Made by a program: the position numbers and the translations under genes
Shown: positions 2,663 through 27,523 of the stretch, in pieces
Layout of the letters: the number at the start of each line of letters is the position of its first letter
Position numbering within the stretch: position 1 is the stretch's first letter
The notes under the pieces: model-generated
Database searches by the model: none
Told to the model about the DNA's origin: nothing
What the model saw: the letters and a program-made list of their open reading frames with translations, nothing else
Assembly (NCBI GenBank): GCA_050015075.1
Contig: JBEKCB010000033.1
Span: 1 to 62,564 of the forward strand
Direction of reading: 5' to 3'
Origin: Candidatus Brocadiia bacterium
Lineage (GTDB): Bacteria; Planctomycetota; Brocadiia; CAIUPP01
Length of the DNA: 62,564 nucleotides

Positions 2663-3520
2663 TCAGTTCGTGGCGTAGGAATGCAGGCTGACGAGCAGGT
2701 AGCTCACGCCGAAGTAGGTGAAGGCAACGAACACGAAGCCGGCGATGGCAAAGATGGCGTTCAAGCGCGGGAGGTTCTCGCGCTTGACGCCGAACTGCGA
2801 GCCGGCCATGCGGAAGTGCAGATAGATGCCGTACACGAACCACGTGATCAGCGACCACGTCTCCTTCGGATCCCAGCCCCAGTAACGGCCCCACGCCTGC
2901 TTCGCCCACACGGAGCCGGAGATGATACCGACCGTCAGCGCCAGGAAGCCGAACGCCATTAACTGGTAAGCGAGCACGTCCAGGACTTTCTGCGACTCGC
3001 GCTGCCGCCAGATCGCCAGCCACAGGATGGCCGTGCAGAACGCCGCGAAGAACGCGCCGTACGAGACCATGCACGTGAAGACGTGGAAGACCAGCCACTT
3101 GCTCTGCAGCGCCGGCATCAGCGGGTGCGCGCCCTGCGCGAAGAGCGTCGAGACCGCCAGGATTCCCACCGCGCCCAGCGACGCGCCCAGCTCCATCCCG
3201 GTGAAGCCCACGAAGATGCGCGAGACGAAGTACACCGCGCAGAAGCCCCACGCCATCCAGAGCATGGATTCGGGGACGTTCGAGAACGGCGGATAGCCGA
3301 TCGCCCGCCACTCGGCGATAATCGTCGCGGTCAGGCCGACCATGCCGAGTGCGATCAGGACGTTGCCCGCCCCGCGCATCCAGCGGAGCCAGCCGGCCGA
3401 ATCGGCGCCGCGGTCGGCCTTCCTCATGACCAGCGCCAGGACCGCCTGCAGCGCGTTCAGCAGCACCGCGGCCAGGAAGATGACGAAGGACATCGTCCAC
3501 AACTGCTCATGCATCGGCAC
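2663..3520 (-). CDS. ccsA: Cytochrome c biogenesis protein CcsA/ResC (System II)
   Basis: WWD motif WAKQAWGRYWGWDPKETW, PALQSKWLVFH, C-terminal SLHSY. Confidence 0.95.
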   Translation of the reverse strand: MPMHEQLWTMSFVIFLAAVLLNALQAVLALVMRKADRGADSAGWLRWMRGAGNVLIALGMVGLTATIIAEWRAIGYPPFSNVPESMLWMAWGFCAVYFVSRIFVGFTGMELGASLGAVGILAVSTLFAQGAHPLMPALQSKWLVFHVFTCMVSYGAFFAAFCTAILWLAIWRQRESQKVLDVLAYQLMAFGFLALTVGIISGSVWAKQAWGRYWGWDPKETWSLITWFVYGIYLHFRMAGSQFGVKRENLPRLNAIFAIAGFVFVAFTYFGVSYLLVSLHSYATN

Positions 3521-4631
3521 GCCCCTTTCGGTTCAAGAGCGGCTTCGCATAGAACGCGAGCGCTACGCCGATCGGCAGGAGGAGGAACCCGGCGAAGACC
3601 AGCGGCACGCCCGGATCGCGCGTCACCTCCAGCGTGCTGGCCAGGGTCTCCGGGTCGTACGAGACCTGGTAGAACGTATAAGGGCCGACCTTGAGCGGCG
3701 AGTTGACGAGGATGACGGCGTTCTGGACCTCTTTTCCGCCCGCGTCCAGGATCGTGACGTGGCTCTCGAAAGCCTTGACCGTGGGCGCGTGCCAGACGTA
3801 TTTGATCTTGATGCCTGCAGGGACTTTACCGTGGCCTTCGAGATCGGGGTACTTCGAGAAAAGCCACTGCGTGGATTCCCCGGCGGGGCCGGTGAACCGG
3901 ACCTCGACGGCCGGGTTGAGCGGCTCGTTGGAGGCGGAGTAGAACTTGCTGTTCTCGTCCATCTTGAAATCGGGGAAATACCTCAGCACCTCGACGGAGG
4001 TCCCATCGGCGCGCAACTGGACCACCTTGCCGACTTCGCGCGGGATGGAGCGGGCCTGCGCTGTTCCCTCCAGGCGGACTTCCAGCGCATCGTGCGCATC
4101 GTCATAGTACCGGACGACGAAGTCGTCCAGCCGCACTTGGAATCCGAGCGGGGTCCGGGCGGCGGCGTCTTCGACTTCGAAGTCGCCGATCGTCTTTCCC
4201 TTCTCGATCGTGAGCATGCCGTCCACGCCCGCGATGCCGCGCAGGATGGCGCCGGCGACGATGAGCAGGATGCTCGCATGGGTGATCAACGAGAAGCTCT
4301 TGCGAAGGGTGAACCGTACGCCCGAGAAGGTGCAGGCGGCGACGCTGAGCGCCAGCAGCCCCAGAAGGCCCAGGAACCACCACGTGACGTAGAGATGATT
4401 CAGCCCGAGCAAGACGATGAGCGAGCCGACGACGCGGCCGTAACGGGCGATGGCCGCCTCGGGCAGGTAGAGCCCCTGCTCGATGAGCGTGCCGACGATG
4501 GATGCCGCGGCGATAAGCGCCATGAGGACGATGGCGAAACGGATGGACTTGAGGCCTCGGATGACGCGCCGAACCCAGCCGGGGTCGGCGGCAGGCGAGG
4601 AAGGCCGGGCGGTTTCGTCGGGGGTCTTCAT
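3507..4631 (-). CDS. resB: Cytochrome c biogenesis protein ResB/CcsB
   Basis: SIRFAIVL...GTLIEQ, THASIL, VNSPL...FYQVSY, DPGVPLVFAG; adjacent to ccsA. Confidence 0.9.
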   Translation of the reverse strand: MKTPDETARPSSPAADPGWVRRVIRGLKSIRFAIVLMALIAAASIVGTLIEQGLYLPEAAIARYGRVVGSLIVLLGLNHLYVTWWFLGLLGLLALSVAACTFSGVRFTLRKSFSLITHASILLIVAGAILRGIAGVDGMLTIEKGKTIGDFEVEDAAARTPLGFQVRLDDFVVRYYDDAHDALEVRLEGTAQARSIPREVGKVVQLRADGTSVEVLRYFPDFKMDENSKFYSASNEPLNPAVEVRFTGPAGESTQWLFSKYPDLEGHGKVPAGIKIKYVWHAPTVKAFESHVTILDAGGKEVQNAVILVNSPLKVGPYTFYQVSYDPETLASTLEVTRDPGVPLVFAGFLLLPIGVALAFYAKPLLNRKGRADA

Positions 4632-6073
4632 TTCTGAGCGTGCGCCTGGGCCACTTGCGCGGCCTTGGAGCAGACATTCTCCAGAATGCCGGAAGCGTAC
4701 TCCGGGTTATGAACGGGATTGGCGGCCATGACGAACTTCAGGTCCTCGCGCGCCTCGGCGAGAACCTTGGCGCCGGCCTGCTTTTCAGGGGAATCGGGCA
4801 GCGCCGCGAGACGGGCGGCGGCCGCTTCAACTGCCTTCTGCGCCTGGCCGACGCTCTTGGCCGCATCGTCTTTCCATGTGGCTATCATACCGTCCACCGC
4901 GTCGCCATGGCAAGCGGCGCAAGCGGCGCCGGTGGCTTCGCCGAGGCCCTCGGGCGAGACTTTGCCGCCGGCGGCCGGCGTCCTGTGGCAGGCGATGCAC
5001 TGGACGGAAGCCGCCCACATGACGCTGGGCTTGCCCTTGACGTCGTGCGCTCCCTGGCCGCGATACAGCGTGGCGACCTGGGCGTGCCGGTCGGTGTGGC
5101 ACTGGGTGCAGGAGATGTCTTCGCCGCCATGCACGACGTCCTTTCCATGGCGGATTTCGGAGTGGCAGTAGAAGCATTCCACGTGGTGGTCGGTCACGTG
5201 CGTCTGGTGCAGGAACGCGGGGTCGCCGCGTTTTTGCAGGTCCTCGGTTTTGGAGTGGCAGGCCATGCACACCTGGCCGGGGACGCTTCCGGTGCCCTGC
5301 AGGCAGTCGGCGTGGCACATCATGCACTGGACCTGCGCGCGGTCAATGTAGTCCTTGTGCGAGAACGTGTCGCCGGTCGCCAGCTTGACCGGCTTCGACG
5401 GCGCGGCGTGGCAGAGAGTGCAGTTGGCCGTCGGGCTGGCTGCGGCGACGGGGTCGTCGTAGCGGTAGCCCTTGAAATGGCAGGTGAAGCAAACCGATTC
5501 CGTCACGGTGAGATGCCCGCCCTGGAGGACCTGGACGATCTGCGAATGGCAGGTCTGGCAGCGGAGCTGCTTGCCGCGGCGGGTCTCCGTCAGATGCGGC
5601 TTATGATCGAAGCGGACGGGGACCTGTAATTGTCCCTGGAGGCCGGTGAATTCCACCTGGCCCTGGCCTTCCAGGAGCCGTTTTTCGTGGCAACCCGGCC
5701 GGAGGCAGGCGGCGTCGGGAATCTCCGCGTGCAGCCGCGTGCCGTACGTGCCGGTGACGTACGAGGCTACCTGGCGGAGCGCCTGGAACTTCACTTTCAA
5801 GATGGACTTGATGCCTGACGCGGCGTGACACTTCAGGCATTCCACGCCGCGCTGGCCGTGCGGGGAGGTTTTCCAGGACTGGTAATAGGGCTCCATGATG
5901 TGGCAGCTTCTACAGAACGTGGAGTGGCCGCTGAGCAGCAACATTCCACCGGAGCCGGCGACGGCCAGAAAGGCCGCCGCGGCCAGGCAATAGAAGAACC
6001 GCCTCTGCAGGAGCAAGGGTTGGCCGGTTCCGACGGGAACATGGATTCCCGCAACGCGCAGTATCCGTCTCAT
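4628..6073 (-). CDS. Membrane-anchored multiheme cytochrome c (about 12 hemes) with NapC/NirT-like N-terminus
   Basis: N-terminal TM, FCRSCHIMEPYYQSWKTSPH; 11 CxxCH plus one CX4CH (CLRPGCH). Confidence 0.9.
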   Translation of the reverse strand: MRRILRVAGIHVPVGTGQPLLLQRRFFYCLAAAAFLAVAGSGGMLLLSGHSTFCRSCHIMEPYYQSWKTSPHGQRGVECLKCHAASGIKSILKVKFQALRQVASYVTGTYGTRLHAEIPDAACLRPGCHEKRLLEGQGQVEFTGLQGQLQVPVRFDHKPHLTETRRGKQLRCQTCHSQIVQVLQGGHLTVTESVCFTCHFKGYRYDDPVAAASPTANCTLCHAAPSKPVKLATGDTFSHKDYIDRAQVQCMMCHADCLQGTGSVPGQVCMACHSKTEDLQKRGDPAFLHQTHVTDHHVECFYCHSEIRHGKDVVHGGEDISCTQCHTDRHAQVATLYRGQGAHDVKGKPSVMWAASVQCIACHRTPAAGGKVSPEGLGEATGAACAACHGDAVDGMIATWKDDAAKSVGQAQKAVEAAAARLAALPDSPEKQAGAKVLAEAREDLKFVMAANPVHNPEYASGILENVCSKAAQVAQAHAQK

Positions 6074-6145
6074 GAGTTAACGATACCGGAATTCGACAAA
6101 GAATCTGTGATGACCGCAATGCCTGAGGTCACGGTGCGGCCTGGC

Positions 6146-6769
6146 TCACTCGGCCGCCGCTTTCGGAACCGTATGCTTGATCTTATCCCAGCAGGCGTCG
6201 TAGTCGAAGCCGACCTTCTTGCCGTCCTTGGTGGTGAACCGGTCCGGCTTCCAAGCGGGCGACTGATCGTTGTGACAGGTGACGCAGAGTTTTTCGTCGC
6301 CGATCATCAAGCCCGCTTTGAGGGCAAGCGCACGGTCCTTCATGACGCTCAACGACTTGTAATCATTTCCCGCGCCATGGCAGGTTTCGCACTGAACGCC
6401 GTCCTCGACCTTGAACGCGGGCTTCAGGAAGTCGGCTTTCTGAGCATCGGAGAGGTCCCATCCGGTCGCGTGGCAGCGCAGGCACTCGGGGCTTTCCACC
6501 GGGGCCTTCTTGAGACCGCGGTCCGTTCCCATCTTCAGGGCTTCCGGCGTCTTGAGCGTCTCGTATGCCGTTGCGTGCTTGCTCGCTTTCCAGATGACCA
6601 CCTGCTCGCCCTGTTTCTTCGTGCTGTGGCACATGCGACAGCCCGCGACGCCGATATAGGCGTGCTGGGGCGCGGCCGCTTCGGCCTGCGCAACCGCGGC
6701 GCTGACGGCCAGACCCAGAATCACAGACAGACCAACTCCGGCGAACCCGATTCCCTGTCGCTTGCCCAT
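6146..6769 (-). CDS. Periplasmic tetraheme cytochrome c (c554-like)
   Basis: Signal peptide; YIG..CRMCH, CLRCH, GVQCETCHG, CVTCH; GGAGG RBS before ATG at 6769. Confidence 0.88.
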   Translation of the reverse strand: MGKRQGIGFAGVGLSVILGLAVSAAVAQAEAAAPQHAYIGVAGCRMCHSTKKQGEQVVIWKASKHATAYETLKTPEALKMGTDRGLKKAPVESPECLRCHATGWDLSDAQKADFLKPAFKVEDGVQCETCHGAGNDYKSLSVMKDRALALKAGLMIGDEKLCVTCHNDQSPAWKPDRFTTKDGKKVGFDYDACWDKIKHTVPKAAAE

Positions 6770-6888
6770 CGCTCCTCCCTTAACCATGCTAGATTTATTT
6801 CGCCCTGCTGCGCCATCCAAGTCGGGCTTATTGTACCCGATTACGCCATCGCTTTCCAATGCCGACGCTTTGCAATAACTGATAGTAC

Positions 6889-6906
6889 AGCACGTCTTAT
6901 GCCCAA
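6889..6906 (-). promoter_or_regulatory. Possible sigma-54 promoter for the leftward cytochrome/ccs operon
   Basis: Minus strand TTGGGCATAAGACGTGCT has GG-N10-GC spacing but imperfect consensus. Confidence 0.4.
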
Positions 6907-7312: not shown

Positions 7313-10300
7313 ATGTTAAGCCACCGGATGAGGTTCACTGTGCTTCGACACGCAACGCTGCCGATATTGATCGCCCTGATCTGTCTCACCGCCCGGACTG
7401 CCGCGGCCATTGACAATGCCGACTGCCTCACATGCCACAGCGACCAGTCGCTGGTTAAGAAGGACCGTTCCGGCAAGACTATCTCCCTGTTCGTGGACGA
7501 GGCGAAATTCAAGGCCACCATCCACGGCAAGAACCTCTGCACCAGTTGCCACTCGGATATCACTGAGGCGCCTCATCCCGACAACTTCGTCGCGAAGTCT
7601 GTATCCTGCGCGCAATGCCACCGCGTGGAAACGGAGATTTATCTAAAAAGCGACCATGGCCAGGCGGTTCACACGGGCGTGCAGGAAGCGGCCTCCTGCA
7701 AAGATTGCCACGGCAGCAACCACTATTTGCTGAACCACCGCGACCCCCAGTCGCCGGTGTATCGAACCAACCTGCCGCAGACTTGCGGACGGTGCCACAG
7801 CAACGTGCCCGAGATGGAGAAGTTCAATCTCCGGCAGCGTTCCCCTGTCCTCAGCTACGACAACAGCGTCCATGGCATTGCCTTGCTCCAGAAGGGCGAA
7901 GTCAACGCCGCCGTCTGCACCGACTGTCACGGCTCGCACAACCTCCACCGGTCCACGAACCCCTTGTCCAAGCTCTACTGGCAGAATGTGCCCGACACCT
8001 GCGGCAAATGTCATGAAAACGTCGAGCAGACTTACAGCGTCAGCGTTCACGGCACCGCGGTCAAGGCCGGAGTGCGCGACGCGCCCGTCTGCACCGACTG
8101 TCATGGCGAGCACACGATCACCGCGGTCAAGCTGGCCACGTCCCGCGTGGCGCCGGCCAACATCCCAGAAACCTGCGGCCAGTGCCATGCCGCGCAGCGG
8201 ATCATCACGCAGTACCGATTGCCGCCGAATGTGTTTTCGACCTACGTGCAGAGCTTCCACGGCCTGGCCTTGCAGGGCGGCAACATCACTGCGGCCAATT
8301 GCGCTTCCTGTCACGGCATACACGATATTCTGCCCGCCAGCGATGCCCGCTCCACGATCAATCCCCAGAATCTGCCGGAAACCTGCGGCAAGTGCCATCC
8401 CGGCATCGGCACCCGGCTCAGCGCGGAGTTCTTCCGTATTCACGCGCCGCTCGGCGCGGCAGTGGGAAAACCGTGGATCGTGAATTTCATATCCTGGTTC
8501 TATATCGCCCTGATTACGATGACCATCGGCGGGATGGCGTCGTTCAATCTGCTCGACTATCTCCGCAAAACCCGTACGCACATCCGCGCCGTCCGGAACA
8601 GCGAGGGCGAACCGCGCCTGACTCCCTGGATGGCCTTCCAGCACTACCTGCTGGTGGGGCTGTTCATTCTGCTGGTCTACACCGGCTTCGCGCACAGATT
8701 CCCGGACGCGTTCTGGAGCTGGCCGTTCCGCATTCTGCCCGACGGCAGCTCCGTGCGCGGCATCGTCCATCGAATCTGCGGCTGGACGTTCGCCGGTTTC
8801 TTCCTGGGGCACGTGATCGCGCTCGTCGGAACCCGTCGCGGCCGCGAGCACTTCCGGGCGCTGTGGTTTGTCCGGGACGATCTCAGGGATGCCTTCGCCC
8901 AGTTGACTTACAATCTCGGCCTGCGCACGGCGGCGCCGCCGCACCGCCGCTGGAACTACGCGGAAAAGGCCGAATACTGGGCCTTGATCTGGGGCTCCGT
9001 GGTGATGATCGTCACCGGCGTGATGCTGATCTTCACTGCAACCGTGCTGGCCACGCTGCCGAAAGTGTGGCACGACGTGGCGCAGGTGATCCATTACTAC
9101 GAAGCCACGCTGGCCGCCCTGGCCATTCTGGTGTGGCATTTTTACTGGACGATTTTCGATCCCGACGAATATCCCATGAACCCCTCCTGGCTGCTCGGCA
9201 AGAAAGCGGCGCACCCTCGCGGGGTCGCAAAGCCCGGCCCGCTCGCCGCGGGGACGCCGGCCGCTCCGGCCGTGGACTGCGGCGACCGCGCGGGCAAGTG
9301 CAACCTGCCCGACAGTGAGTGCCGGATCCTGCAACTGCTGCAGGATGAGTTCCCGCTGTGCCGATCACCGTACGCCGAGGTCGCCCGGCGGACCGGTCTT
9401 TCCCCGGAGGACGCGGACCGGCGCATCTTCTCTCTTCGGCAACGCGGGGTCATCCGGCGCATCGGCGGCGTCATTAACCCGCGGCGTCTCGGCCTGGCCG
9501 CCACGCTCGTGGCGATGAAGGTGCCGCCCGAGCGCGTCAACGAGGTGGACGCGGTGGTCTACGCGCTGCCGAACGTCACGCACAATTGCCTGCGCGAGCA
9601 CGAATACAACATGTGGCTCACGCTGACGGCGAAGTCGCGCGAAGAACTCGCCGCGACGGTGTCGCAACTCAAGCGCGTCACCCGGATCACGGAACTCCTC
9701 GACCTGCCTTCCTCGAAAACCTACAAGATCAACGTGCGACTGGACTGCGGACAGCCCCAGGCCGCTCCGCGCGGGACGCGGGCGGAAGCCGCCGGTCCAC
9801 CGCTCACGGATGCGCAAGGCGCGCCGCCGGCGCCCGGATCGAAGCCAGGTCCGGTCAAATTGACGGAGACGCAGGAGAAGGTGCTCGATCTCCTTCAAGG
9901 GGACCTCCCGGACGGTCTTGAGCCTTATGACGCGCTGGCGGAGCGCGCGGGGCTGCCGGTCGAGACCTTCCTGGCCACGGCGAGGGAACTCATCCAGTGC
10001 GGCTGTTTCCGGAGAATCAGCGCATTGGTCAATCACGGCCAGCTCGGTTTCCGGGCGAATGCCCTGTGCGTCTGGCAGGTGCCCGTCGGCCACGAGGACG
10101 AAGCCGGTCGCGCCATCGCCGGGTTCTCGGCGGTGACGCACTGTTACCGGCGCCCGGTCTCCGACGACTGGCCCTACGCGATCTTCTCCACGATCCACGG
10201 TCCGAACCGGGCGGCGTGCGAGGAGACCGCGCGCCAGATCGCGGAGAAAGTGGATCCGATCGCCCATTGCGTCATTTTCACCGTGCGCGAACTGAAGAAG

Positions 10301-10345
10301 GGAACCCGCAGGCTTTGGATACGCGGTTCAGGGGTCGGTTCATAA
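7313..10345 (+). CDS. Fusion: 11-heme cytochrome c + cytochrome b membrane domain (CbcL-like) + C-terminal AhbA/AhbB-like (Lrp/AsnC-fold siroheme decarboxylase) domains
   Basis: Signal peptide, 11 CxxCH; 5 TM helices with His motifs (QHYLL, VHRICG, IHYYEA, WHFY) and NYAEKAEYW; then LLQDEFPL..PYAEVA..GVIRRIG..THNCLR and LQGDLP..PYDALA..THCYRR..WPY..IHG. Confidence 0.9.
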   Translation: MLSHRMRFTVLRHATLPILIALICLTARTAAAIDNADCLTCHSDQSLVKKDRSGKTISLFVDEAKFKATIHGKNLCTSCHSDITEAPHPDNFVAKSVSCAQCHRVETEIYLKSDHGQAVHTGVQEAASCKDCHGSNHYLLNHRDPQSPVYRTNLPQTCGRCHSNVPEMEKFNLRQRSPVLSYDNSVHGIALLQKGEVNAAVCTDCHGSHNLHRSTNPLSKLYWQNVPDTCGKCHENVEQTYSVSVHGTAVKAGVRDAPVCTDCHGEHTITAVKLATSRVAPANIPETCGQCHAAQRIITQYRLPPNVFSTYVQSFHGLALQGGNITAANCASCHGIHDILPASDARSTINPQNLPETCGKCHPGIGTRLSAEFFRIHAPLGAAVGKPWIVNFISWFYIALITMTIGGMASFNLLDYLRKTRTHIRAVRNSEGEPRLTPWMAFQHYLLVGLFILLVYTGFAHRFPDAFWSWPFRILPDGSSVRGIVHRICGWTFAGFFLGHVIALVGTRRGREHFRALWFVRDDLRDAFAQLTYNLGLRTAAPPHRRWNYAEKAEYWALIWGSVVMIVTGVMLIFTATVLATLPKVWHDVAQVIHYYEATLAALAILVWHFYWTIFDPDEYPMNPSWLLGKKAAHPRGVAKPGPLAAGTPAAPAVDCGDRAGKCNLPDSECRILQLLQDEFPLCRSPYAEVARRTGLSPEDADRRIFSLRQRGVIRRIGGVINPRRLGLAATLVAMKVPPERVNEVDAVVYALPNVTHNCLREHEYNMWLTLTAKSREELAATVSQLKRVTRITELLDLPSSKTYKINVRLDCGQPQAAPRGTRAEAAGPPLTDAQGAPPAPGSKPGPVKLTETQEKVLDLLQGDLPDGLEPYDALAERAGLPVETFLATARELIQCGCFRRISALVNHGQLGFRANALCVWQVPVGHEDEAGRAIAGFSAVTHCYRRPVSDDWPYAIFSTIHGPNRAACEETARQIAEKVDPIAHCVIFTVRELKKGTRRLWIRGSGVGS

Positions 10346-10365
10346 CTCCTTGGGTGAAATCTCAC

Positions 10366-11424
10366 ATGAAGAGCCTTAACCGCCTGATCGTCGCCGCTGC
10401 GCTGGCCATGCTCGCGCAGGGCGTCCCGGCAGGGGCCGCAGCGGAGCCGCAGGAATCCGAGAACTCTTCCCCTGCGGTTACCTCAAGCCTTCCGGCCAGC
10501 ACACCGCTTCCATCAATCGAGTCCGCAGCCGCCACGCCGGCGGGAACCGCGAGCGTATCGGGCGCACGGGCCCCAGCGGAGCAGAAAGAGTCCGACACCT
10601 GCGGCACGTGCCACGAGCAAGAGACGAAGGAGTGGATGGAATCGCCGCATGCGCATGCCATCAACGAGCGCTACCTCGGCGAGTGGGAGCGCGAGGGCCG
10701 CAAATGGGAATGCCTCGTCTGCCACACGAGCCAGTACGATCGCAAGAGCGGCGGCTTTTCGCACGCCGGCGTGAGTTGCCAGTCCTGTCACGGGCCGGTG
10801 ACTGAGGACCATCCCGACAAGGTCAAGAAGCTCCTGCCGGTGACCTCCGAGGTCTGCCAGCCCTGCCACAGCGTGACTTTCGGGGAATGGCGCATCAGTT
10901 CGCACGGCCAGAAGAACATCCGCTGCTTCGACTGCCACAAGATGCACCAGATGAACCTCCGCAAAGAAGATCCCGACCAGATGTGCGGCACGTGCCATAC
11001 CGAACGATTGAAGGACTACTCGCACGCCACGCATCACCTGAAAGGCGTGCAATGCATCACCTGCCACATGCCCGAGGTGATGGGCGCAGGCCTGAAGATC
11101 AAAGGGACCGGCGTGCGCGGCCACACCTTCAGCGTCGGCGCCGAGACCTGCGCCCGATGCCACCGCGAAATGGTCCATACGCGCAGCAACCTGGCCGACC
11201 TGGAGGGTGAAGTCGAGCGCCTCAAGGAGGTCAGTCCGCAGGCGCTCCAGAAGCAGGTCGAGCAACAGCAGCATGAGATTGACCAACTGCGCGCGGAGCT
11301 TCGGACCGACCGCTCAGTCTTCTCTGTCGTGGTCGTGCTGGTCTTCGGTTTGGGCGTGGTCATCGGCTACGCCGCCATGCACCACTTCCACAGAAAAAGC
11401 TCAAAAGAGGAGCCGCCCAAATGA
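10366..11424 (+). CDS. Octaheme cytochrome c with C-terminal coiled coil and TM anchor
   Basis: Signal peptide from ATG 10366; 8 CxxCH; C-terminal VFSVVVVLVFGLGVVIGY. Confidence 0.9.
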   Translation: MKSLNRLIVAAALAMLAQGVPAGAAAEPQESENSSPAVTSSLPASTPLPSIESAAATPAGTASVSGARAPAEQKESDTCGTCHEQETKEWMESPHAHAINERYLGEWEREGRKWECLVCHTSQYDRKSGGFSHAGVSCQSCHGPVTEDHPDKVKKLLPVTSEVCQPCHSVTFGEWRISSHGQKNIRCFDCHKMHQMNLRKEDPDQMCGTCHTERLKDYSHATHHLKGVQCITCHMPEVMGAGLKIKGTGVRGHTFSVGAETCARCHREMVHTRSNLADLEGEVERLKEVSPQALQKQVEQQQHEIDQLRAELRTDRSVFSVVVVLVFGLGVVIGYAAMHHFHRKSSKEEPPK

Positions 11425-12329
11425 GCGAAACGCCTGACGGTCCGGGCACGGGCGGGATTTCCCGCCGAAGTTTTCTCGGGCTCGGAGCCGCGGGATTGGG
11501 GGCGGCGCTTCTGATGAACCGCACCGGCTGGGCCGGCGAAACGCCGGAGAACCCGGACTCACCCCAGTCCAGTGTCCTGGTTGACTTGACCCGCTGCATC
11601 GGCTGCCGCGCCTGCGAGAACGCCTGCCGCGTGCGCCAGAAACGGCCGCCCCTGCCGGTCAGCCGAGTGGGCTACGGCCCCGGCGAAGGCCGCCTTTCAT
11701 TCACCTCCTGGACGTTCGTGGATTTCCGCGAAGTCCAGGGCGCGCCGGCGTCCAAGACCATATTCCCGGTCAAAAGGCAGTGCATGCACTGCGTGGATGC
11801 CGCGTGCGTCTCGGCCTGCCCGGTGGCGGCCCTGCACAAGACTCCGCGCGGTGCGGTGGTCTATACCGCATCGCGTTGCATCGGCTGCCGGTACTGCATG
11901 ATCGCCTGCCCGTTCAAGGTCCCCCGCTACGAATGGAACGAGGGGCTGACGCCGCGCGTCGGCAAGTGCGATTTCTGCGACGACCGCGTGGCGTCCGGAA
12001 CCAACCCCGCCTGCGTGATGGCGTGTCCGACCGGCACTCTGAAGTTCGGGACGCGGACGAACATGCTGCGCGAGGCGCAGGCGCGGATGCGGGTGAACCC
12101 CGGCCGGTACGTTTCCATCTACGGCGACAAGGTCGTCGCCGGCACCTCCTGGATTTATCTCTCGGACGTGCCGATGGAGCAGCTTGGGTTCCGCGTTGAT
12201 CTGCCGGAGGTCGCCCTGCCGTCGCTGACGTGGGCCTCGCTGACGAGAGTGCCGGTGGTGGTCGTGACATTGGGGATTGTCCTGGCCGGGGTCTATCGGC
12301 TGCACGGAAGGAAGGCATCCCATGATTGA
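11421..12329 (+). CDS. Tat-exported 4x[4Fe-4S] protein, HybA/HmcB/NrfC-like
   Basis: SRRSFLG twin-arginine; CIGCRACENAC, CMHCVDAACVSACP, CIGCRYCMIACP, KCDFC..PACVMACP; C-terminal TM. Confidence 0.92.
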   Translation: MSETPDGPGTGGISRRSFLGLGAAGLGAALLMNRTGWAGETPENPDSPQSSVLVDLTRCIGCRACENACRVRQKRPPLPVSRVGYGPGEGRLSFTSWTFVDFREVQGAPASKTIFPVKRQCMHCVDAACVSACPVAALHKTPRGAVVYTASRCIGCRYCMIACPFKVPRYEWNEGLTPRVGKCDFCDDRVASGTNPACVMACPTGTLKFGTRTNMLREAQARMRVNPGRYVSIYGDKVVAGTSWIYLSDVPMEQLGFRVDLPEVALPSLTWASLTRVPVVVVTLGIVLAGVYRLHGRKASHD

Positions 12330-13599
12330 ATCGGCCTATTTGGCGATCGTGCTCCAGGTTGCCGTCGCGCTGGCGGCGGCGGTGATGGGCGTGGCCGCGT
12401 GCTGGCTGCTGGCCGGGCGGAAAGTACCGCAGAAGGTCTCGATCCGCCTGATCTGGTGGGTGGTGCTGCCGATCCTGTGGGCGTTCGGCGGCATCGCGTT
12501 CGTGACCCGGTTCACCGGCGGCCTCGGCGCAATGACGAATCTCTCGGACACGTTTCCGTGGGGGATCTGGATTGCGTTCGACATGCTCTGCGGAGTCGCC
12601 CTGGCGGCGGGCGGGTTCCTGACCGCCGGAGCGGTGTACATCTTCGGGCTGAAGAAGTTCTATCCCATCCTGCGCCCCGCAATCCTCACCGCCTATCTCG
12701 GCTACCTGATGGTGCTGGGCGGACTGCTCATGGACCTGGGCCGGCCGTACAATATCTGGCACCCGATGATCTACTGGCAGCACCGCTCCGTGATGTTCGA
12801 GCTCGGCTGGTGCGTCAGCTTGTACAACATGGTGCTGACCGTGGAGTTCCTGCCGCTGCTGCTCGAGAAATTCCGCTGGCACCGGCTGCTGCGGATCGTC
12901 CACTCGGTCACCATTCCCGCGGTGATCGCCGGGTGCATTCTTTCCACGCTGCACCAGTCTTCGCTGGGCGCGTTGTTCCTGATCGTGCCCGAGAAGATGT
13001 GGCCGATCTCCTATTCGCCCCTGCTGCCGCTGTACTTCCTCATCAGCGCCGTGGCCGTGGGCCTGGCTATGACCATTGTCGAATCCAACCTTTCCGCCAA
13101 GGCGTTTCAACGGAGCCTGGAAACGCCGATCGTCCTGGCGCTCGCGCGCGCCATCCCGCTGGTCATCATTCTGCTGCTGACCATCCGCGTCATAGACATG
13201 ACCGTGCGCGGCGCGTGGGTGTACCTGTTGCCGCGGCCGTTCCAGACGGTCACTTTCCTGCTGGAGATGGCCTTGCTCCTGATCCCGACGTTCATCCTGT
13301 TGCACCCGCATTGGAAGCGCCAGCCGCGCACGGTGTTTTGGGCCGCGGCCTCGGTGGTGGCGGCGATTATTATGAACCGTCTGGACGTCGCCTGGTTTGC
13401 CATGCTCCCCTCGGCTGACAATGTTTACGTGCCCTCATGGCAGGAGGTCGCGGTCACGCTCAGCCTGGTCTCTCTAGGCGTGGTGCTTTTCGGCCTGGCG
13501 GCGCGCTACCTGCCGTTGTTCGCGCATCATGCGCCGAACGAACCCGCCGCGGCGGCGGCGGAATTGGCGCTCGACCAAAGCGCGGCGGTTTCCGAATAA
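12322..13599 (+). CDS. NrfD/PsrC-family membrane subunit, HybB/HmcC-like
   Basis: TNLSDTFPWGIWIAFD, DLGRPYNIWH, SVMFE, STLHQSSLG, YVPSWQE. Confidence 0.92.
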   Translation: MIESAYLAIVLQVAVALAAAVMGVAACWLLAGRKVPQKVSIRLIWWVVLPILWAFGGIAFVTRFTGGLGAMTNLSDTFPWGIWIAFDMLCGVALAAGGFLTAGAVYIFGLKKFYPILRPAILTAYLGYLMVLGGLLMDLGRPYNIWHPMIYWQHRSVMFELGWCVSLYNMVLTVEFLPLLLEKFRWHRLLRIVHSVTIPAVIAGCILSTLHQSSLGALFLIVPEKMWPISYSPLLPLYFLISAVAVGLAMTIVESNLSAKAFQRSLETPIVLALARAIPLVIILLLTIRVIDMTVRGAWVYLLPRPFQTVTFLLEMALLLIPTFILLHPHWKRQPRTVFWAAASVVAAIIMNRLDVAWFAMLPSADNVYVPSWQEVAVTLSLVSLGVVLFGLAARYLPLFAHHAPNEPAAAAAELALDQSAAVSE

Positions 13600-13611
13600 G
13601 GGGTTGAGGCT

Positions 13612-14373
13612 ATGGACGCGCAATTCAGGGACCGGTTCATCACTCTCTGGGCGAAGTACTTCGGCGAGGCGGAACTCCCCATCGGCTTCTACTACACGAA
13701 GGACGAAGCGTGTGCCCGGCACCTTCGCCCCACCATCGGGCATGCCTGCCTGATCGGCCAGTTAGGGCAGGTCCGGAAAGGGCGGCCCCTTTGCGTCAGC
13801 GGCGATTCCGTCAGTTGCTTCGGCGGTAAGAGGTATCTCGGCTTCCGGAAAGAGGTGATTCCCGATTTCGAGTATTTCCTCTCCTGCGGGATACCCGGCA
13901 AGGTCATCGGCGAGCGCTACAAGAAATCGCCCCAGATCGTCCGGCAGGCCATGGCGAACCAGGCGTCGTTCGACGCGCCCGCGAAATACGCCGTCTTCAA
14001 GCGGTGGGACAAGCTGGAGGAAAGCGACCCGGTCGCCGTGGTGATCTTCTTCGCCATTCCGGATGTCCTCTCCGGGCTTTTCACACTCGCGAATTTCGAT
14101 GAGACGGATCCCTATGCCGTCATCGCCCCTTTCGGCGCCGGATGCGGCGCGATCACGCTGTATCCCTATCTCGAGAAGGACCGCAACCCGCCCCGCTCGG
14201 TCATCGGAATGTTCGACATATCAGCCCGCCCCTTTGTCCCGGCCTCCACGATCTCGTTCGCAACGCCAATGGCCAAATTCGCGCGGATGGTCGAGAACAT
14301 GGGAGAGAGCTTCCTTACAACCAAGTCCTGGGCCAGGGTGCGGCGCAGGATACAGAACGATCTTCGCGGGTGA
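13612..14373 (+). CDS. DUF169-family protein
   Basis: ELPIGFYY, CFGGKRYLGF, FLSCG..GERYKKSP, PFGAGC, GMFDISAR. Confidence 0.75.
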   Translation: MDAQFRDRFITLWAKYFGEAELPIGFYYTKDEACARHLRPTIGHACLIGQLGQVRKGRPLCVSGDSVSCFGGKRYLGFRKEVIPDFEYFLSCGIPGKVIGERYKKSPQIVRQAMANQASFDAPAKYAVFKRWDKLEESDPVAVVIFFAIPDVLSGLFTLANFDETDPYAVIAPFGAGCGAITLYPYLEKDRNPPRSVIGMFDISARPFVPASTISFATPMAKFARMVENMGESFLTTKSWARVRRRIQNDLRG

Positions 14374-17581: not shown

Positions 17582-17626
17582 AGTTGCAAGGAGTTTGGCC
17601 CCTGTTTCCACGGATGAGGAGTCGCC

Positions 17627-18859: not shown

Positions 18860-19828
18860 ATGGAAGTCTGTGTAATCGGCACTCGCGGTTCGCCGCTGGC
18901 GATGTGGCAGGCGGACCACGTGCGCCGCGCGCTCCTCGAAGCGCATCCGGGCCTGGAGGTTCGCCTCGAGGTCATCCGCACCACGGGCGACGTGCTGCTG
19001 GAGCCGCCGCTCGCGAAGATCGGCGGCATGGGCGTCTTCACAAAAGAGATCGAGAACGCGCTGCTGAAACGCCAGGTGGACGTGGCGGTGCACAGCCTCA
19101 AAGACCTGCCGACTCAGCTCGCCGACGGCCTTCGCCTGGCGGCCGTCCTCAAGCGCGAGGACCCGGCCGACGCGCTCGTCGCGCGCGACGGGCGAAGCCT
19201 GACGCAACTCCCCGCCGGCGCGAAGGTCCTGACCGGCTCGCTGCGCCGCCAGGCGCAACTGCTGCACCGCCGCCCCGACCTGAAGGTCGCGCAGATGCGA
19301 GGCAACGTGCAGACCCGGCTGGACAAATTCGACCAGTCCGACGCAAGCGCCATGCTCCTCGCCTGCGCGGGACTGGCTCGGCTGGATCTGTCCGACCGGA
19401 TCACGGAGCGGCTCGATCCCGCCGACTTTCTGCCCGCCTGCGGCCAGGGCGCAATGGCGGTCGAGGTCCGCGCCGACGACGCGCGCGTGGCGGAGTTCTG
19501 CCGCGCGCTCGACGACCGCGCCACGCGCCTGGCTACGACGGCGGAGCGCGCGTTCCTGGCCGCGCTCGGCGGCGGCTGCCTGGCGCCGATCGGCGCTTAC
19601 GGCCGGTCGCCGGCCGGACAGGAAAAGCTGGCGCTGACCGGCATGGTGGCCAGGCTGGACGGATCGCGCCTGATCCAGCGGACGGTTGAGAGCGCCGCTC
19701 CGAAAAGCGAGAGCGATGCCGTCGCGCTCGGTGAGCGTCTTGCGGAACGATTGCGCGCGGAAGGAGCGGAAGAAATCCTGCGGGAGATCGCCTCCAAGTC
19801 CGCGACTACGCTGAGGGAAGGACCATGA
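18860..19828 (+). CDS. hemC: Hydroxymethylbilane synthase (porphobilinogen deaminase)
   Basis: IGTRGSPLAMWQA, GVFTKEIE, AVHSLKDLP, GSLRRQAQL, RGNVQTRL, LGGGC. Confidence 0.97.
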   Translation: MEVCVIGTRGSPLAMWQADHVRRALLEAHPGLEVRLEVIRTTGDVLLEPPLAKIGGMGVFTKEIENALLKRQVDVAVHSLKDLPTQLADGLRLAAVLKREDPADALVARDGRSLTQLPAGAKVLTGSLRRQAQLLHRRPDLKVAQMRGNVQTRLDKFDQSDASAMLLACAGLARLDLSDRITERLDPADFLPACGQGAMAVEVRADDARVAEFCRALDDRATRLATTAERAFLAALGGGCLAPIGAYGRSPAGQEKLALTGMVARLDGSRLIQRTVESAAPKSESDAVALGERLAERLRAEGAEEILREIASKSATTLREGP

Positions 19829-21348: not shown

Positions 21349-21360
21349 GAAGACGCTTTC

Positions 21361-25926: not shown

Positions 25927-25997
25927 GCCGCGAAGAGGCGCAAGAGATAAGGCAAACTTCCTGTAGTTGCGCCGCGCCTCTTGCGCCTCTTTGCGGC
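25927..25997. repeat. 20-bp inverted repeat between convergent hemL and nuoN (REP-like or bidirectional terminator)
   Basis: GCCGCGAAGAGGCGCAAGAG ... CTCTTGCGCCTCTTTGCGGC, one mismatch. Confidence 0.75.
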
Positions 25998-26023
25998 TAT
26001 TTTGTTTTATCCGCTTACGCTAC

Positions 26024-27514: not shown

Positions 27515-27523
27515 CCGTTCACC

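What the first reader, a model, noticed from the sequence alone, without database searches (positions are those of the whole stretch)
7313..10345. Multiheme cytochrome c - cytochrome b - AhbAB (Lrp-fold) fusion: candidate transmembrane redox/heme signal transducer
Seen: one uninterrupted ORF with signal peptide, 11 CxxCH, five TM helices with cytochrome b His ligands, an Ala/Pro linker, then complete AhbA-like (about 9305-9750) and AhbB-like (about 9860-10310) domains. Five TMs after a periplasmic domain place AhbAB in the cytoplasm. Known: the c+b part resembles Geobacter CbcL-type quinol oxidoreductases; AhbA/B (NirDLGH family) are normally soluble siroheme decarboxylases with wHTH+Lrp folds. 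Inference: I know of no described fusion of these. Because a normal AhbAB exists 13 kb downstream, this copy may couple quinone-pool or periplasmic redox state to heme synthesis or DNA binding, or channel tetrapyrrole at the membrane.
Basis: partly seen in the sequence, partly recalled or inferred. Interest (0 to 1): 0.93.

Follow-up and report, generated by a model that had tools for sequence, protein, structure and literature searches.

The report
Respiratory cytochrome fused to haem-synthesis enzyme
One real gene in a peat bacterium joins a membrane respiratory cytochrome that carries 13 haems to a complete copy of an enzyme that helps make haem, an arrangement that no paper found in the searches here describes and that may tie haem production to the state of the respiratory chain.

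Summary
Window 7313-10345 (+) is one 1010-aa ORF. It has a signal peptide, 11 CxxCH, one anchor helix plus a four-helix FdnI-like dihaem cytochrome b, an Ala/Pro linker, and then AhbA and AhbB domains, both over NCBIfam's curated cut-offs.

The fusion is not an artefact. Six 90%-identity protein clusters from several sources carry it. So do three distinct DNA copies. Contigs of 4 of 4 non-source peat runs cross the junction without an indel.

It is restricted to one genus-level clade: 1 of 60 class relatives has it. The c-b core is a widespread CbcL/MtrH/MtoC-type protein that otherwise ends 6-85 aa after the last helix. In unfused relatives the operon is c-b, multihaem cytochrome, FeS, NrfD, and the AhbAB module sits exactly at that first gene boundary.

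The module is under purifying selection (dN/dS 0.16-0.51, linkers 0.47-0.90). It folds like NirDL. It keeps the iron-ligand His and the catalytic His/Tyr/Arg, but has a clade-specific Tyr-to-Cys in the AhbA half-site.

The "normal" AhbAB downstream is itself fused to AhbD. How the fusion works is inferred, not shown. My best guess is a membrane-tethered, redox-coupled sirohaem decarboxylase.

The parts
7313..10345 (+). Whole fused gene (1010 aa plus stop). The conserved start is probably Met6 at 7328 (1005 aa).
7313..7408 (+). Signal peptide region (residues 1-32; hydrophobic core LPILIALICL, then TAAA before IDNADC)
   Evidence: hydropathy; sequence; the cleavage site is inferred
7409..8467 (+). 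Periplasmic multihaem cytochrome c domain, residues 33-385, 11 CxxCH
   Evidence: All 11 sites are occupied in 86 of 86 family rows. pLDDT above 90.
8468..9208 (+). Membrane part, residues 386-632: one anchor helix plus a four-helix FdnI/HydC-like cytochrome b. Candidate haem b ligands are H444, H486 (or H500), H594 and H609.
   Evidence: PF01292; hydropathy; His invariant in 86 of 86 rows; best fold match FdnI 1kqf_C, TM 0.68 on the target, E 4.9e-3
9209..9307 (+). Linker 1 (residues 633-665), Ala/Pro/Gly-rich, variable in length and sequence among orthologues
   Evidence: alignment; dN/dS 0.47-0.76; pLDDT below 50
9308..9757 (+). AhbA-type half (residues 666-815; NCBIfam match 671-811)
   Evidence: dN/dS 0.16-0.51
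9581..9595 (+). AhbA half-site motif H757-N-C759-L-R761. The family motif is HxYxR; here Tyr is replaced by Cys, and only in the fused clade.
   Evidence: residue roles from PMC4145669
9758..9868 (+). Linker 2 (residues 816-852), Ala/Pro/Gly-rich, variable
   Evidence: dN/dS 0.63-0.90; low pLDDT
9869..10312 (+). AhbB-type half (residues 853-1000; NCBIfam match 858-997)
   Evidence: dN/dS 0.26-0.28
10139..10153 (+). AhbB catalytic motif H943-C-Y945-R-R947, intact. It aligns with His98B, Tyr100B and Arg102B of D. desulfuricans AhbB.
10390..11424 (+). Next gene: multihaem cytochrome c (344 aa). It directly follows c-b in unfused relatives.
11421..12329 (+). HmcB/HybA-like 4Fe-4S protein
12277..13599 (+). 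HmcC/NrfD-like integral membrane subunit
13612..14373 (+). DUF169 protein. In L065 it directly follows the fused gene.
2663..6900 (-). Divergent upstream unit: CcsB, a ResB-like protein (System II cytochrome c synthase), a NapC/NirT-like 481-aa multihaem cytochrome and a cytochrome c554-like protein
18860..25900 (+). Sirohaem-dependent haem pathway: hemC, cobA-hemD, ahbC, the ahbD-ahbA-ahbB fusion (22491-24620), and a class-III aminotransferase (my reading: hemL-like)

Best explanation
The gene is a genuine, recently formed fusion that selection maintains. The N-terminal two thirds are a CbcL/MtrH/MtoC-type inner-membrane cytochrome: a Sec signal, 11 periplasmic c-type haems, one anchor helix and a four-helix FdnI-like dihaem cytochrome b. 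By homology this part passes electrons between the quinone pool and periplasmic cytochromes. The cytoplasmic C-terminal third is a complete single-chain sirohaem decarboxylase (AhbA-AhbB, NirDL-like) of a subfamily foreign to this lineage. I propose that it still binds sirohaem and probably still decarboxylates it. I propose further that tethering it by a flexible linker of about 35 residues beside the cytoplasmic-side b haem places this early, committed step of the alternative haem pathway under the redox state of the respiratory chain. A reduced chain would favour more haem for more cytochromes. This would parallel Methanosarcina barkeri AhbA/B, whose bound haem b (-98 mV) raises activity 6.5-fold when reduced. 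Shown here: the architecture, its recurrence, the purifying selection, the retained catalytic residues and the NirDL-like fold. Inferred: the topology (hydropathy, positive-inside rule, FdnI homology), catalytic activity, and any electron or conformational coupling between the b haems and the module. That it is a real, selected fusion I put at about 0.9. The stated redox-coupling mechanism I put at about 0.4, which is the confidence given.
For: Real and recurrent: six 90%-identity clusters of 1005-1013 aa at 86-100% identity from several sources, one on a 531-kb contig. Three distinct DNA copies: window, L001 and L065. Contigs of 4 of 4 non-source peat runs bridge the cyt b/AhbA junction with 0 gaps. 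Selection: dN/dS is 0.16-0.51 for AhbA, 0.26-0.28 for AhbB, 0.13-0.26 for the cytochrome parts and 0.47-0.90 for the linkers, in three non-independent pairwise comparisons. Enzyme features: both halves pass the curated AhbA and AhbB equivalog cut-offs. The module alone folds at pLDDT 90.1 and pTM 0.87, with NirDL 4ch7/4czc as best matches at E about 1e-28. H757 and R761 align with the iron ligand His115A and with Arg119A. H943, Y945 and R947 align with His98B, Tyr100B and Arg102B, whose R102A mutant is inactive. Redox precedent: haem b on M. barkeri AhbA/B controls its activity. Position: the b domain is FdnI-like with four invariant TM His, so one b haem should lie near the cytoplasmic face where the module is attached. 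Context: a dedicated System II cytochrome c synthase, several multihaem cytochromes and the whole Ahb pathway share the locus. Canonical ahb or hem genes lie within 10 kb of unfused c-b genes in loci whose records name three other phyla (Verrucomicrobiota L002, L004, L008, L009; Acidobacteriota L015; Elusimicrobiota L018), which suggests a wider link between this cytochrome cluster and haem supply. Three substitutions fixed in 9 of 9 fused rows cluster at the AhbA half-site (N750Y, Y759C, F769L), while 8 of 8 close stand-alone AhbA keep N, Y and F. This points to remodelling of the pocket after the fusion.
Against: No direct evidence of coupling exists. The fusion is confined to one genus-level clade (1 of 60 class relatives; 1 of 63 species-representative loci), so it could be young and of little consequence. 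The genome already has a canonical AhbAB with intact motifs, so the fused copy is not needed for the pathway. The Tyr-to-Cys change in a conserved motif could reduce or alter catalysis. In Palmer et al. the haem site of haem-binding AhbA/B enzymes is unknown, and D. vulgaris AhbA/B activity is not affected by its haem. The linker is long and variable, which fits a loose tether rather than a fixed electron-transfer interface. Two database proteins (P0008, P0272) read the AhbA part through frameshifts, which could mean decay in some strains. In L065 the fused gene lacks the adjacent multihaem cytochrome, FeS and NrfD genes, so it is not bound to that complex. I found no expression data.
Confidence: 0.4

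Rival explanations
1. The fusion has no mechanistic role. A second sirohaem decarboxylase gene landed directly behind the c-b gene and the stop codon was lost. Both parts work independently: quinol/cytochrome electron transfer, and extra decarboxylase capacity for a cell that makes many multihaem cytochromes. The tether gives at most co-expression in equal amounts.
For: Narrow, young distribution. The module sits exactly at the old gene boundary between c-b and the multihaem cytochrome gene. The linkers evolve almost neutrally. Ahb genes are prone to fusion: AhbD-AhbA-AhbB lies in the same window and similar long frames occur in relatives. All main catalytic residues are kept.
Against: Three substitutions at the AhbA half-site are fixed in 9 of 9 fused rows, including loss of a Tyr kept in 100 of 108 AhbA-type hits. 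That is not expected if the module simply carried on as before. A soluble enzyme permanently tied to a 13-haem membrane protein at a 1:1 ratio is an odd way to add capacity. The fusion has been kept across at least three diverged copies (83-100% module identity) with the reading frame intact.
Confidence: 0.25
2. The module is a non-catalytic tetrapyrrole or haem sensor, or a membrane-tethered Lrp/AsnC-type transcription regulator. It reads haem, sirohaem or the redox state of the b haems and controls haem or cytochrome genes by DNA binding or protein contacts.
For: AhbA/B has the Lrp/AsnC fold with winged HTH domains. Palmer et al. report that the homologue NirL of Heliophilum fasciatum binds the nirJ2 promoter, and leave DNA binding by AhbA/B open. 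The clade-specific Cys759 sits two residues from the iron-ligand His in the pocket and could, speculatively, ligate haem iron. Haem pathway genes lie 8.5 kb downstream.
Against: The module scores over the curated AhbA and AhbB equivalog cut-offs but far under every Lrp/AsnC regulator cut-off, for example LrpA 30 bits against 250. The catalytic His, Tyr and Arg of the AhbB half are retained, which a pure sensor would not need. No DNA-binding test was possible. A tether of about 35 residues to a polytopic membrane protein restricts access to DNA, although membrane-bound regulators of the ToxR type are known (recalled).
Confidence: 0.2
3. The module is a haem or tetrapyrrole hand-over station. 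It holds a haem-pathway intermediate or haem at the membrane to feed the neighbouring System II cytochrome c synthase (CcsB/ResB) or to load the protein's own b haems.
For: CcsB and a ResB-like gene lie in the divergent upstream unit. A ResB-like gene also lies upstream of unfused c-b genes in L002-L004, L006, L008 and L009 (32-35% identity), and the CcsB-type gene in L003 and L004 (41-42%). [quoted passage not shown] The protein itself needs 13 haems.
Against: Didecarboxysirohaem still needs AhbC and AhbD before it becomes haem, so a decarboxylase is an unlikely last hand-over point (pathway as in PMC4145669). No contact with CcsB/ResB was tested. Unfused relatives manage without it.
Confidence: 0.1
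4. It is an assembly or gene-calling artefact, or a decaying pseudogene tail.
For: P0008 and P0272 show frameshifted versions of the AhbA region.
Against: Independent assemblies from several sources give the same intact frame. 4 of 4 runs show no indel. dN/dS is well below 1 in both Ahb halves. GC3 is even along the ORF.
Confidence: 0.03

Closest known systems
CbcL / MtrH / MtoC family of inner-membrane multihaem cytochrome c fused to a HydC/FdnI-like cytochrome b (Geobacter sulfurreducens CbcL as type; survey PMC6295460, passages read)
   Same: Same order of parts: N-terminal periplasmic CxxCH domain, then a C-terminal FdnI/HydC-like dihaem b. The family has 3-23 haem motifs, 416-1034 aa and occurs in 15 phyla, including Planctomycetes and Verrucomicrobia. 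Its genes often lie next to other cytochrome c genes.
   Different: This protein has 11 haem motifs (CbcL has nine) and five membrane helices (most family members have six; a few have five). Uniquely, it has a 384-392-aa cytoplasmic AhbAB extension, where 80 of 86 aligned relatives end 6-85 aa after the last helix. Direct sequence comparison with G. sulfurreducens CbcL was not made, as no CbcL sequence was at hand.
Sirohaem decarboxylase AhbA/AhbB of Desulfovibrio desulfuricans (PDB 4CZD, 4UN1; PMC4145669)
   Same: Both halves align end to end (E 4.8e-30 and 1.9e-24). The iron-ligand His, the propionate-binding Arg and the catalytic His/Tyr/Arg of AhbB are kept. The fold matches.
   Different: This one is a single chain, not two subunits. 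It is membrane-tethered, not soluble. The Tyr117A position is Cys.
NirDL of Hydrogenobacter thermophilus (PDB 4CH7, 4CZC), a natural single-chain sirohaem decarboxylase of the haem d1 pathway
   Same: Best sequence match (E 9.2e-46) and best fold match (E 1e-28, TM 0.74-0.75 on the target). It has the same A-B order on one chain.
   Different: NirDL is a free cytoplasmic protein in a nir cluster. The window's genome has no convincing cytochrome cd1 gene (one 22-bit hit). NirDL has Tyr in both motifs.
Methanosarcina barkeri AhbA/B with a regulatory haem b (PMC4145669)
   Same: An AhbA/B whose activity depends on the redox state of a haem (-98 mV, 6.5-fold). This is the functional precedent for the proposed coupling.
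   Different: In M. barkeri the haem is bound by the soluble enzyme itself. Here the haems would belong to a fused membrane cytochrome. Whether the fused module binds haem is unknown.
AhbD-AhbA-AhbB fusion in the same window (22491-24620)
   Same: It is also an AhbAB module joined to another protein, which shows that AhbAB tolerates N-terminal fusions. Its motifs are intact (HNYGR and HCYRR).
   Different: Its partner is the next-but-one pathway enzyme (haem b synthase), a plain metabolic fusion. Its module is only 35% identical to the cytochrome-fused one.
FdnI, gamma subunit of E. coli formate dehydrogenase-N (PDB 1KQF chain C)
   Same: Best structural match of the membrane part (TM 0.68 on the target over 207 columns). 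Same Pfam family, PF01292. Four conserved TM His for two b haems.
   Different: FdnI is a separate subunit without c-type haems or a cytoplasmic domain. The Foldseek E-value was weak (4.9e-3) because the query was the whole 1010-aa model.

Membership tests
Sirohaem decarboxylase AhbA/AhbB (NirDL-like) | Scores above the curated equivalog cut-offs for AhbA (NF040708) and AhbB (NF040707) | tested here: met
   184.8 bits against a cut-off of 140, and 205.8 bits against 125
Sirohaem decarboxylase AhbA/AhbB (NirDL-like) | Two tandem halves, each a winged HTH plus an AsnC-type alpha+beta domain, packed into one barrel as in NirDL | tested here: met
   Pfam PF22451 and PF17805, each in two stretches. 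Model pLDDT 90.1; best matches 4ch7/4czc at E 1e-28.
Sirohaem decarboxylase AhbA/AhbB (NirDL-like) | HxYxR motif in the AhbB half (His98B, Tyr100B, Arg102B; Arg essential by mutagenesis) | tested here: met
   H943-C-Y945-R-R947
Sirohaem decarboxylase AhbA/AhbB (NirDL-like) | HxYxR motif in the AhbA half (His115A iron ligand, Tyr117A, Arg119A) | tested here: not met
   The motif reads H757-N-C759-L-R761. His and Arg are kept; Tyr is replaced by Cys in all fused copies. Tyr is present in 100 of 108 AhbA-type hits in the fetched loci.
Sirohaem decarboxylase AhbA/AhbB (NirDL-like) | Converts sirohaem to 12,18-didecarboxysirohaem | not testable with these tools
   Needs an anaerobic enzyme assay
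Sirohaem decarboxylase AhbA/AhbB (NirDL-like) | Soluble cytoplasmic protein or heterodimer | tested here: not met
   The module is covalently joined to a five-helix membrane protein
CbcL/MtrH/MtoC-type cytochrome c-b fusion | N-terminal signal peptide and multiple CxxCH motifs before the membrane part | tested here: met
   11 CxxCH at residues 38-362, conserved in 86 of 86 rows
CbcL/MtrH/MtoC-type cytochrome c-b fusion | C-terminal HydC/FdnI-like b-type cytochrome with TM helices and four haem-ligand His | tested here: met
   PF01292 at 38.8 bits against a cut-off of 30.1. FdnI is the best fold match. H444, H486, H594 and H609 are invariant in 86 of 86 rows. There are five helices here, where the survey reports mostly six.
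CbcL/MtrH/MtoC-type cytochrome c-b fusion | Detectable sequence homology to G. sulfurreducens CbcL, R. ferrireducens MtrH or MtoC | not tested
The assignment rests on architecture and on the shared Pfam family.
CbcL/MtrH/MtoC-type cytochrome c-b fusion | Quinol oxidation or quinone reduction | not testable with these tools
   Needs biochemistry
Lrp/AsnC transcription regulators | Scores above the curated cut-offs of Lrp/AsnC regulator models | tested here: not met
   LrpA 30 bits against 250; AsnC 21.6 against 227; Lrp 15.1 against 233. Only the generic HTH_AsnC-type Pfam domain passes, at 34.4 bits against 27.
Lrp/AsnC transcription regulators | Sequence-specific DNA binding | not testable with these tools
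   Needs EMSA or ChIP

The most novel reading that the evidence does not exclude
The 13-haem chain is wired to the tetrapyrrole pocket. Electrons, or a redox-linked conformational change, would pass from the periplasmic c haems through the two b haems to a haem or sirohaem held in the remodelled AhbAB pocket, where Cys759 lies next to the iron-ligand His757. The protein would then act as a transmembrane redox gauge that sets the rate of haem synthesis, or the expression of haem and cytochrome genes, according to the potential of the quinone pool or of extracellular acceptors. That would be the first biosynthetic enzyme of a cofactor found directly gated by the respiratory chain that consumes the cofactor.
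Probability: 0.2. Interest if true: 0.85.

Novelty: new variant of a known kind. Interest (0 to 1): 0.62.

Why it matters
How cells that make dozens of multihaem cytochromes match haem supply to demand is poorly understood. So is the meaning of the haem that co-purifies with some AhbA/B enzymes; Palmer et al. could not locate its site. A natural protein that welds a sirohaem decarboxylase to a dihaem-b, 11-haem-c respiratory protein is a ready-made test case for redox control of the alternative haem pathway. It also gives a defined construct for asking whether AhbA/B modules sense haem or redox state. The recurrent closeness of ahb genes and a System II cytochrome c synthase to this cytochrome cluster in several phyla suggests a wider 'cytochrome factory' gene neighbourhood. 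The limits are plain: the fusion is known only from uncultured peat bacteria of one genus-level clade, and nothing about its activity has been measured.

Tried and rejected
Haem d1 explanation for the second AhbAB (NirDL/GH role): the genome (93.6% complete) gave only one 22-bit match to the cytochrome d1 domain, so this is not supported.

Recent duplication of the lineage's own AhbAB: rejected. The two modules are 35% identical. In the domain tree the own canonical halves rank 52nd and 24th of 225 by distance, while stand-alone AhbA and AhbB proteins of unknown origin are nearest. In that tree I left out HMM hits covering fewer than 110 profile positions, identical duplicates (234 reduced to 226) and the fragments P0278, P0279, P0300 and P0303.

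Split-gene ancestors next to c-b: not found. In 30 c-b loci, AhbAB-type matches lie within 10 kb in 4 unfused loci (L002, L008, L009, L018). They lie about 8-9 kb or more from the c-b genes and score better with the window's canonical AhbAB than with the fused module. Five genomes with the closest c-b genes hold AhbAB only at 28-35% identity to the module.

Origin of the module: not resolved. They were not found in 400 sampled genomes of the phylum, where the best other hit was 44%.

Docking of the module on the b domain (complex prediction): verdict 'no answer', score 0.00, controls not run. This is no evidence either way.

Full-length AlphaFold model: good for the c and b parts but poor for AhbAB, because the stand-alone AhbAB rows in alignment A2 did not align to the module. 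I redid the fold with alignment A3.

Foldseek with the whole model gave no hit at E <= 0.001.

Sequence search of the c-b part against solved structures gave only one weak cytochrome c hit.

Expression: no RNA holder was listed for 8800-10400. This is no evidence on expression.

Loose ends and a 'joint' (for example at 9280, 8848 and 8104) appear to belong to pieces that match only about 22 bases (records 2, 3, 7, 13, 18 and 24), several from contigs of very different depth. I read them as chance or conserved short matches from other organisms and did not follow them.

The dN/dS script stopped with a division-by-zero error on the last 10-codon row, after printing all other rows.

CxxCH count: the Cys, Cys and His columns of all 11 sites are filled in 86 of 86 rows, yet a strict pattern count gives 10 in 2 rows and 11 in 84. 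I take this to be an insertion inside one motif in those two rows; I did not check it.

Supplementary files were not opened: Fig. S7 and S8 of PMC4145669 (motif alignment, R102A assay) and Table S2 of PMC6295460 (the list of CbcL homologues up to 1034 aa, which could in principle include a fused one).

Haufschildt et al. 2014 (NirDL) was seen only as a title in reference lists. Papers read: PMC4145669 (passages and section 12), PMC4835899 (passages), PMC6295460 (passages). All other papers were seen as search listings only.

Full report
WHAT IS THERE. Window 7313-10345 (+) is a single open reading frame of 1010 codons. The product has these parts:
- a hydrophobic N-terminal signal-like segment;
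- 11 CxxCH motifs between residues 38 and 362;
- five hydrophobic helices between residues 387 and 612;
- an Ala/Pro/Gly-rich stretch (633-665);
- two tandem Lrp/AsnC-fold units separated by a second Ala/Pro-rich stretch (816-852).

Pfam finds cytochrome c7/c3-type families, PF01292 (prokaryotic cytochrome b561/FdnI type) at 437-615, and the NirDL-like HTH and AsnC-type ligand-binding domains, each twice. NCBIfam's equivalog models for the sirohaem decarboxylase subunits both pass their curated cut-offs: AhbA at 671-811 (184.8 bits against 140) and AhbB at 858-997 (205.8 bits against 125).

There are two corrections. The conserved start is probably Met6 (7328): the database cluster of this protein is 1005 aa, and three orthologues begin at the corresponding MRF. 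The 'normal AhbAB' downstream is the C-terminal part of a 709-aa AhbD-AhbA-AhbB fusion (22491-24620) inside a full sirohaem-dependent haem operon of hemC, cobA-hemD, ahbC and ahbD-AB.

IS IT REAL? Yes, on five lines of evidence.
- A search of 5.8 billion proteins found six 90%-identity clusters of 1005-1013 aa with the same Pfam content at 86-100% identity. They come from several sources, and one lies on a 531-kb contig.
- The fused gene is present as DNA in a named Brocadiia MAG (L001, 88-90% identity) and in two metagenome contigs (L064 identical, L065 83%).
- The stretch is held by many peat metagenome runs. Contigs from four runs of four studies, none flagged as a possible source, cross the cytochrome b/AhbA junction with no gap: X10 at 8643-9958, X7 at 8636-10500, X6 at 9162-10500 and X9 at 9105-9505. 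No insertion or deletion was listed.
- Third-position GC is even along the ORF.
- Two database proteins from one source (P0008, P0272) read the AhbA part through frameshifts. I cannot tell assembly error from real decay. They are the only evidence against an intact gene.

HOW WIDE IS IT? Narrow.
- Among one genome per species, 1 of 63 related loci carries the fusion.
- Among 60 genomes of the same class, only the same-genus genome does.
- The exhaustive HMMER search of 1.84 billion representatives returned 9087 relatives. None of the best 150 matches the query beyond about residue 670.
- In an alignment of 86 c-b proteins, the tail after the last helix is 6-85 aa in 80 rows and 384-392 aa in the six fused rows.
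- A search with the module alone among long proteins found only the fused clade, its frameshifted form, and an AhbD-AhbAB protein.

THE TWO PARTS. The c-b core is a member, by architecture, of the CbcL/MtrH/MtoC class of inner-membrane proteins. These have an N-terminal multihaem cytochrome c and a C-terminal HydC/FdnI-like dihaem b, with 3-23 haem motifs, 416-1034 aa, and occurrence in 15 phyla. They are proposed quinol oxidases or quinone reductases (PMC6295460, passages). Evidence on the core:
- All 11 haem sites and four transmembrane histidines (H444, H486, H594, H609) are invariant in 86 of 86 rows; H500 is conserved in 81 of 86.
- The model of this part is confident (pLDDT mostly above 90). 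Its best structural match is FdnI of E. coli formate dehydrogenase-N (TM 0.68 on the target), although at a weak E-value of 4.9e-3.
- The closest unfused relatives are 66-80% identical, in records named Verrucomicrobiia, Verrucomicrobiae and Binatia.
- In those Verrucomicrobiia loci the operon is c-b, a 344-aa-type multihaem cytochrome, an HmcB/HybA-like FeS protein and an HmcC/NrfD-like membrane protein (L002, L006-L009). In the window and in L001 the same four genes follow in the same order, with the AhbAB module placed exactly at the first gene boundary.
- The c-b gene was not found in the two same-family genomes or the one same-order genome searched (88-94% complete). It was found in 1 of the 24 other relatives, at 54% identity and unfused. 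The operon therefore looks horizontally acquired.

The AhbAB module, evidence in turn:
- It aligns over its full length with D. desulfuricans AhbA and AhbB and with the single-chain NirDL (E from 1.9e-24 to 9.2e-46).
- Folded alone with a 45-row alignment it reaches pLDDT 90.1 and pTM 0.87. NirDL (4ch7/4czc) is its best fold match at E about 1e-28.
- Palmer et al. (PMC4145669; passages and section 12 read) give the residue roles. His115A ligates the macrocycle iron. Arg119A holds a propionate. His98B, Tyr100B and Arg102B are the proposed catalytic residues, and R102A is inactive.
- In the alignments these residues correspond to H757, R761, H943, Y945 and R947, all of which are present.
- The one exception is the Tyr117A position, which is Cys759. 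Among 108 AhbA-type matches in all fetched loci, 100 have Tyr, 4 have Cys (the window, its identical copy L064, L001 and L065), 2 have His and 2 have Lys.
- A column scan shows three substitutions fixed in 9 of 9 fused rows within twenty residues of this half-site: N750Y, Y759C and F769L. All 8 close stand-alone AhbA relatives keep N, Y and F. The AhbB catalytic region has no such change.
- Pairwise dN/dS among the three distinct DNA copies is 0.16-0.51 (AhbA), 0.26-0.28 (AhbB), 0.13-0.26 (cytochrome parts) and 0.47-0.90 (linkers). The three pairs are not independent, and dS is only 0.16-0.50.

So both Ahb halves are maintained by selection, the linkers are nearly free, and the AhbA side of the pocket has been remodelled in the fused clade.

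ORIGIN OF THE MODULE. The genome (93.6% complete) has exactly two AhbA/AhbB sets, both in this window. The fused module is 35% identical to the canonical one. Its nearest relatives are unnamed stand-alone proteins: AhbA at 57-64%, AhbB at 59-62%, and one 334-aa AhbAB at about 55-60% per half (54% over the whole module). In a domain tree the fused A halves form one clade (support 0.999) inside a 13-member clade with these stand-alone AhbA proteins (support 0.97). The window's own canonical halves rank 52nd and 24th of 225 by distance. That subfamily was not found in 400 sampled genomes of the phylum, nor in five genomes that carry the closest c-b genes.

CONTEXT. Upstream and divergent lie a cytochrome c554-like protein, a NapC/NirT-like 481-aa multihaem cytochrome, a ResB-like protein, and CcsB (over its cut-off). 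The last two form a System II cytochrome c synthase. Downstream of the respiratory genes lie DUF169, an 893-aa double geranylgeranyl-reductase-like protein, an O-methyltransferase, and then the haem operon. Canonical ahb or hem genes also lie within 10 kb of unfused c-b genes in L002, L008, L009 and L004 (Verrucomicrobiia by record title), L015 (Acidobacteriota) and L018 (Elusimicrobia). These loci are partly related to one another, so I make no statistical claim. The recurrence across phyla does suggest that haem supply genes and this cytochrome cluster travel together. In L065, a third member of the fused clade, DUF169 directly follows the fused gene and the multihaem cytochrome, FeS and NrfD genes are not there.

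HOW IT MOST LIKELY WORKS. By homology, the cytochrome part moves electrons between the quinone pool and periplasmic cytochromes, and one of its two b haems lies near the cytoplasmic face. The module attached there keeps everything known to be needed to bind sirohaem and to decarboxylate it. M. barkeri AhbA/B carries a haem b (-98 mV) whose reduction raises its activity 6.5-fold.

My best explanation (about 0.4) is a membrane-tethered decarboxylase whose activity follows the redox state of the respiratory chain, matching haem synthesis to the demand for cytochromes. The altered AhbA half-site would be part of that adaptation. Only the anatomy is shown; activity and coupling are inferred.

The rivals are:
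- a mechanistically neutral fusion of two independent functions (0.25);
- a tetrapyrrole hand-over station for the neighbouring cytochrome c synthase (0.1);
- an artefact or decaying tail (0.03).

A docking prediction between the b domain and the module gave no verdict and counts for nothing.

COMPARISON AND NOVELTY. Each part belongs to a described kind: a CbcL/MtrH/MtoC-type cytochrome and an AhbA/AhbB or NirDL-type sirohaem decarboxylase. The combination was not found in the literature I could search:
- Five full-text searches listed no paper that describes it, and none of the 15 listed even mentions sirohaem decarboxylase.
- The CbcL survey's main text has no mention of AsnC, Lrp or siroheme.
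- Supplementary tables were closed.

Automatic annotations already show the architecture: one source's own name for the protein combines an Lrp family regulator and a formate dehydrogenase cytochrome b subunit. So it is visible in databases but uncharacterised. I rate it a new variant of a known kind. It is surprising to a haem-biosynthesis or electron-transfer specialist, and it makes redox control of AhbA/B directly testable. Against that, it is confined to one uncultured genus-level clade and has no functional data. Interest 0.62.

Noticed in passing
window 22491-24620 (+): AhbD (haem b synthase, radical SAM), AhbA and AhbB are fused in one 709-aa ORF. Long open frames that contain an AhbAB match also occur in class relatives (G021 714 aa, G027 718 aa, G047 761 aa). 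P0273 (724 aa) has radical SAM plus AhbAB Pfam domains.
   Followed up: partly
window 2663-4631 (-): A System II cytochrome c synthase pair (CcsB over its NCBIfam cut-off, plus a ResB-like protein) sits inside the cytochrome cluster. ResB-like genes also lie upstream of unfused c-b genes in L002-L004, L006, L008 and L009 (32-35% identity), and a CcsB-type gene in L003 and L004 (41-42%).
   Followed up: partly
L002, L005, L014, L017, L018, L025, L045 (about 10001-14100 in most); also L023: Many unfused relatives carry two c-b paralogues. In seven of these loci a copy 29-38% identical to the window's protein lies directly upstream of the closer copy; in L023 the closer copy lies first.
   Followed up: no
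L065 7035-7790: In this 83%-identical member of the fused clade, a DUF169 gene overlaps the end of the fused gene and follows it directly. The multihaem cytochrome, FeS and NrfD genes found in the window and in L001 are not at that place.
   Followed up: no
window 14900-18625 (+): An 893-aa protein with two geranylgeranyl-reductase-like FAD domains and an O-methyltransferase lie between the respiratory genes and hemC. They may be quinone- or isoprenoid-modifying enzymes.
   Followed up: no
window 25967-29110 (+): A 1047-aa ORF after the haem operon has no Pfam or NCBIfam match.
   Followed up: no
genomes G002, G003 (same family), G004 (same order): Neither the c-b part nor any AhbAB was found in these close relatives (88-94% complete). 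The whole cytochrome-plus-haem cluster may be an acquired island in this genus.
   Followed up: partly
proteins P0008 (851 aa) and P0272 (617 aa): Both are frameshifted readings of the fused gene inside the linker and AhbA region. P0272 leaves the frame and returns about 70 residues later. This is either assembly error or real decay.
   Followed up: partly
fetched loci, AhbB-type halves: 34 of 105 AhbB-type matches have Leu instead of His at the first position of the HxYxR motif. The proposed acid/base His98B is therefore not universal in the family.
   Followed up: no
window residues 896-898 of the ORF (about 9998-10006): The AhbB HTH region has a Cys-Gly-Cys pair where the nearest stand-alone AhbB proteins have Ala-Gly-Tyr. 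One fused orthologue (P0005) has Cys-Gly-Tyr.
   Followed up: no
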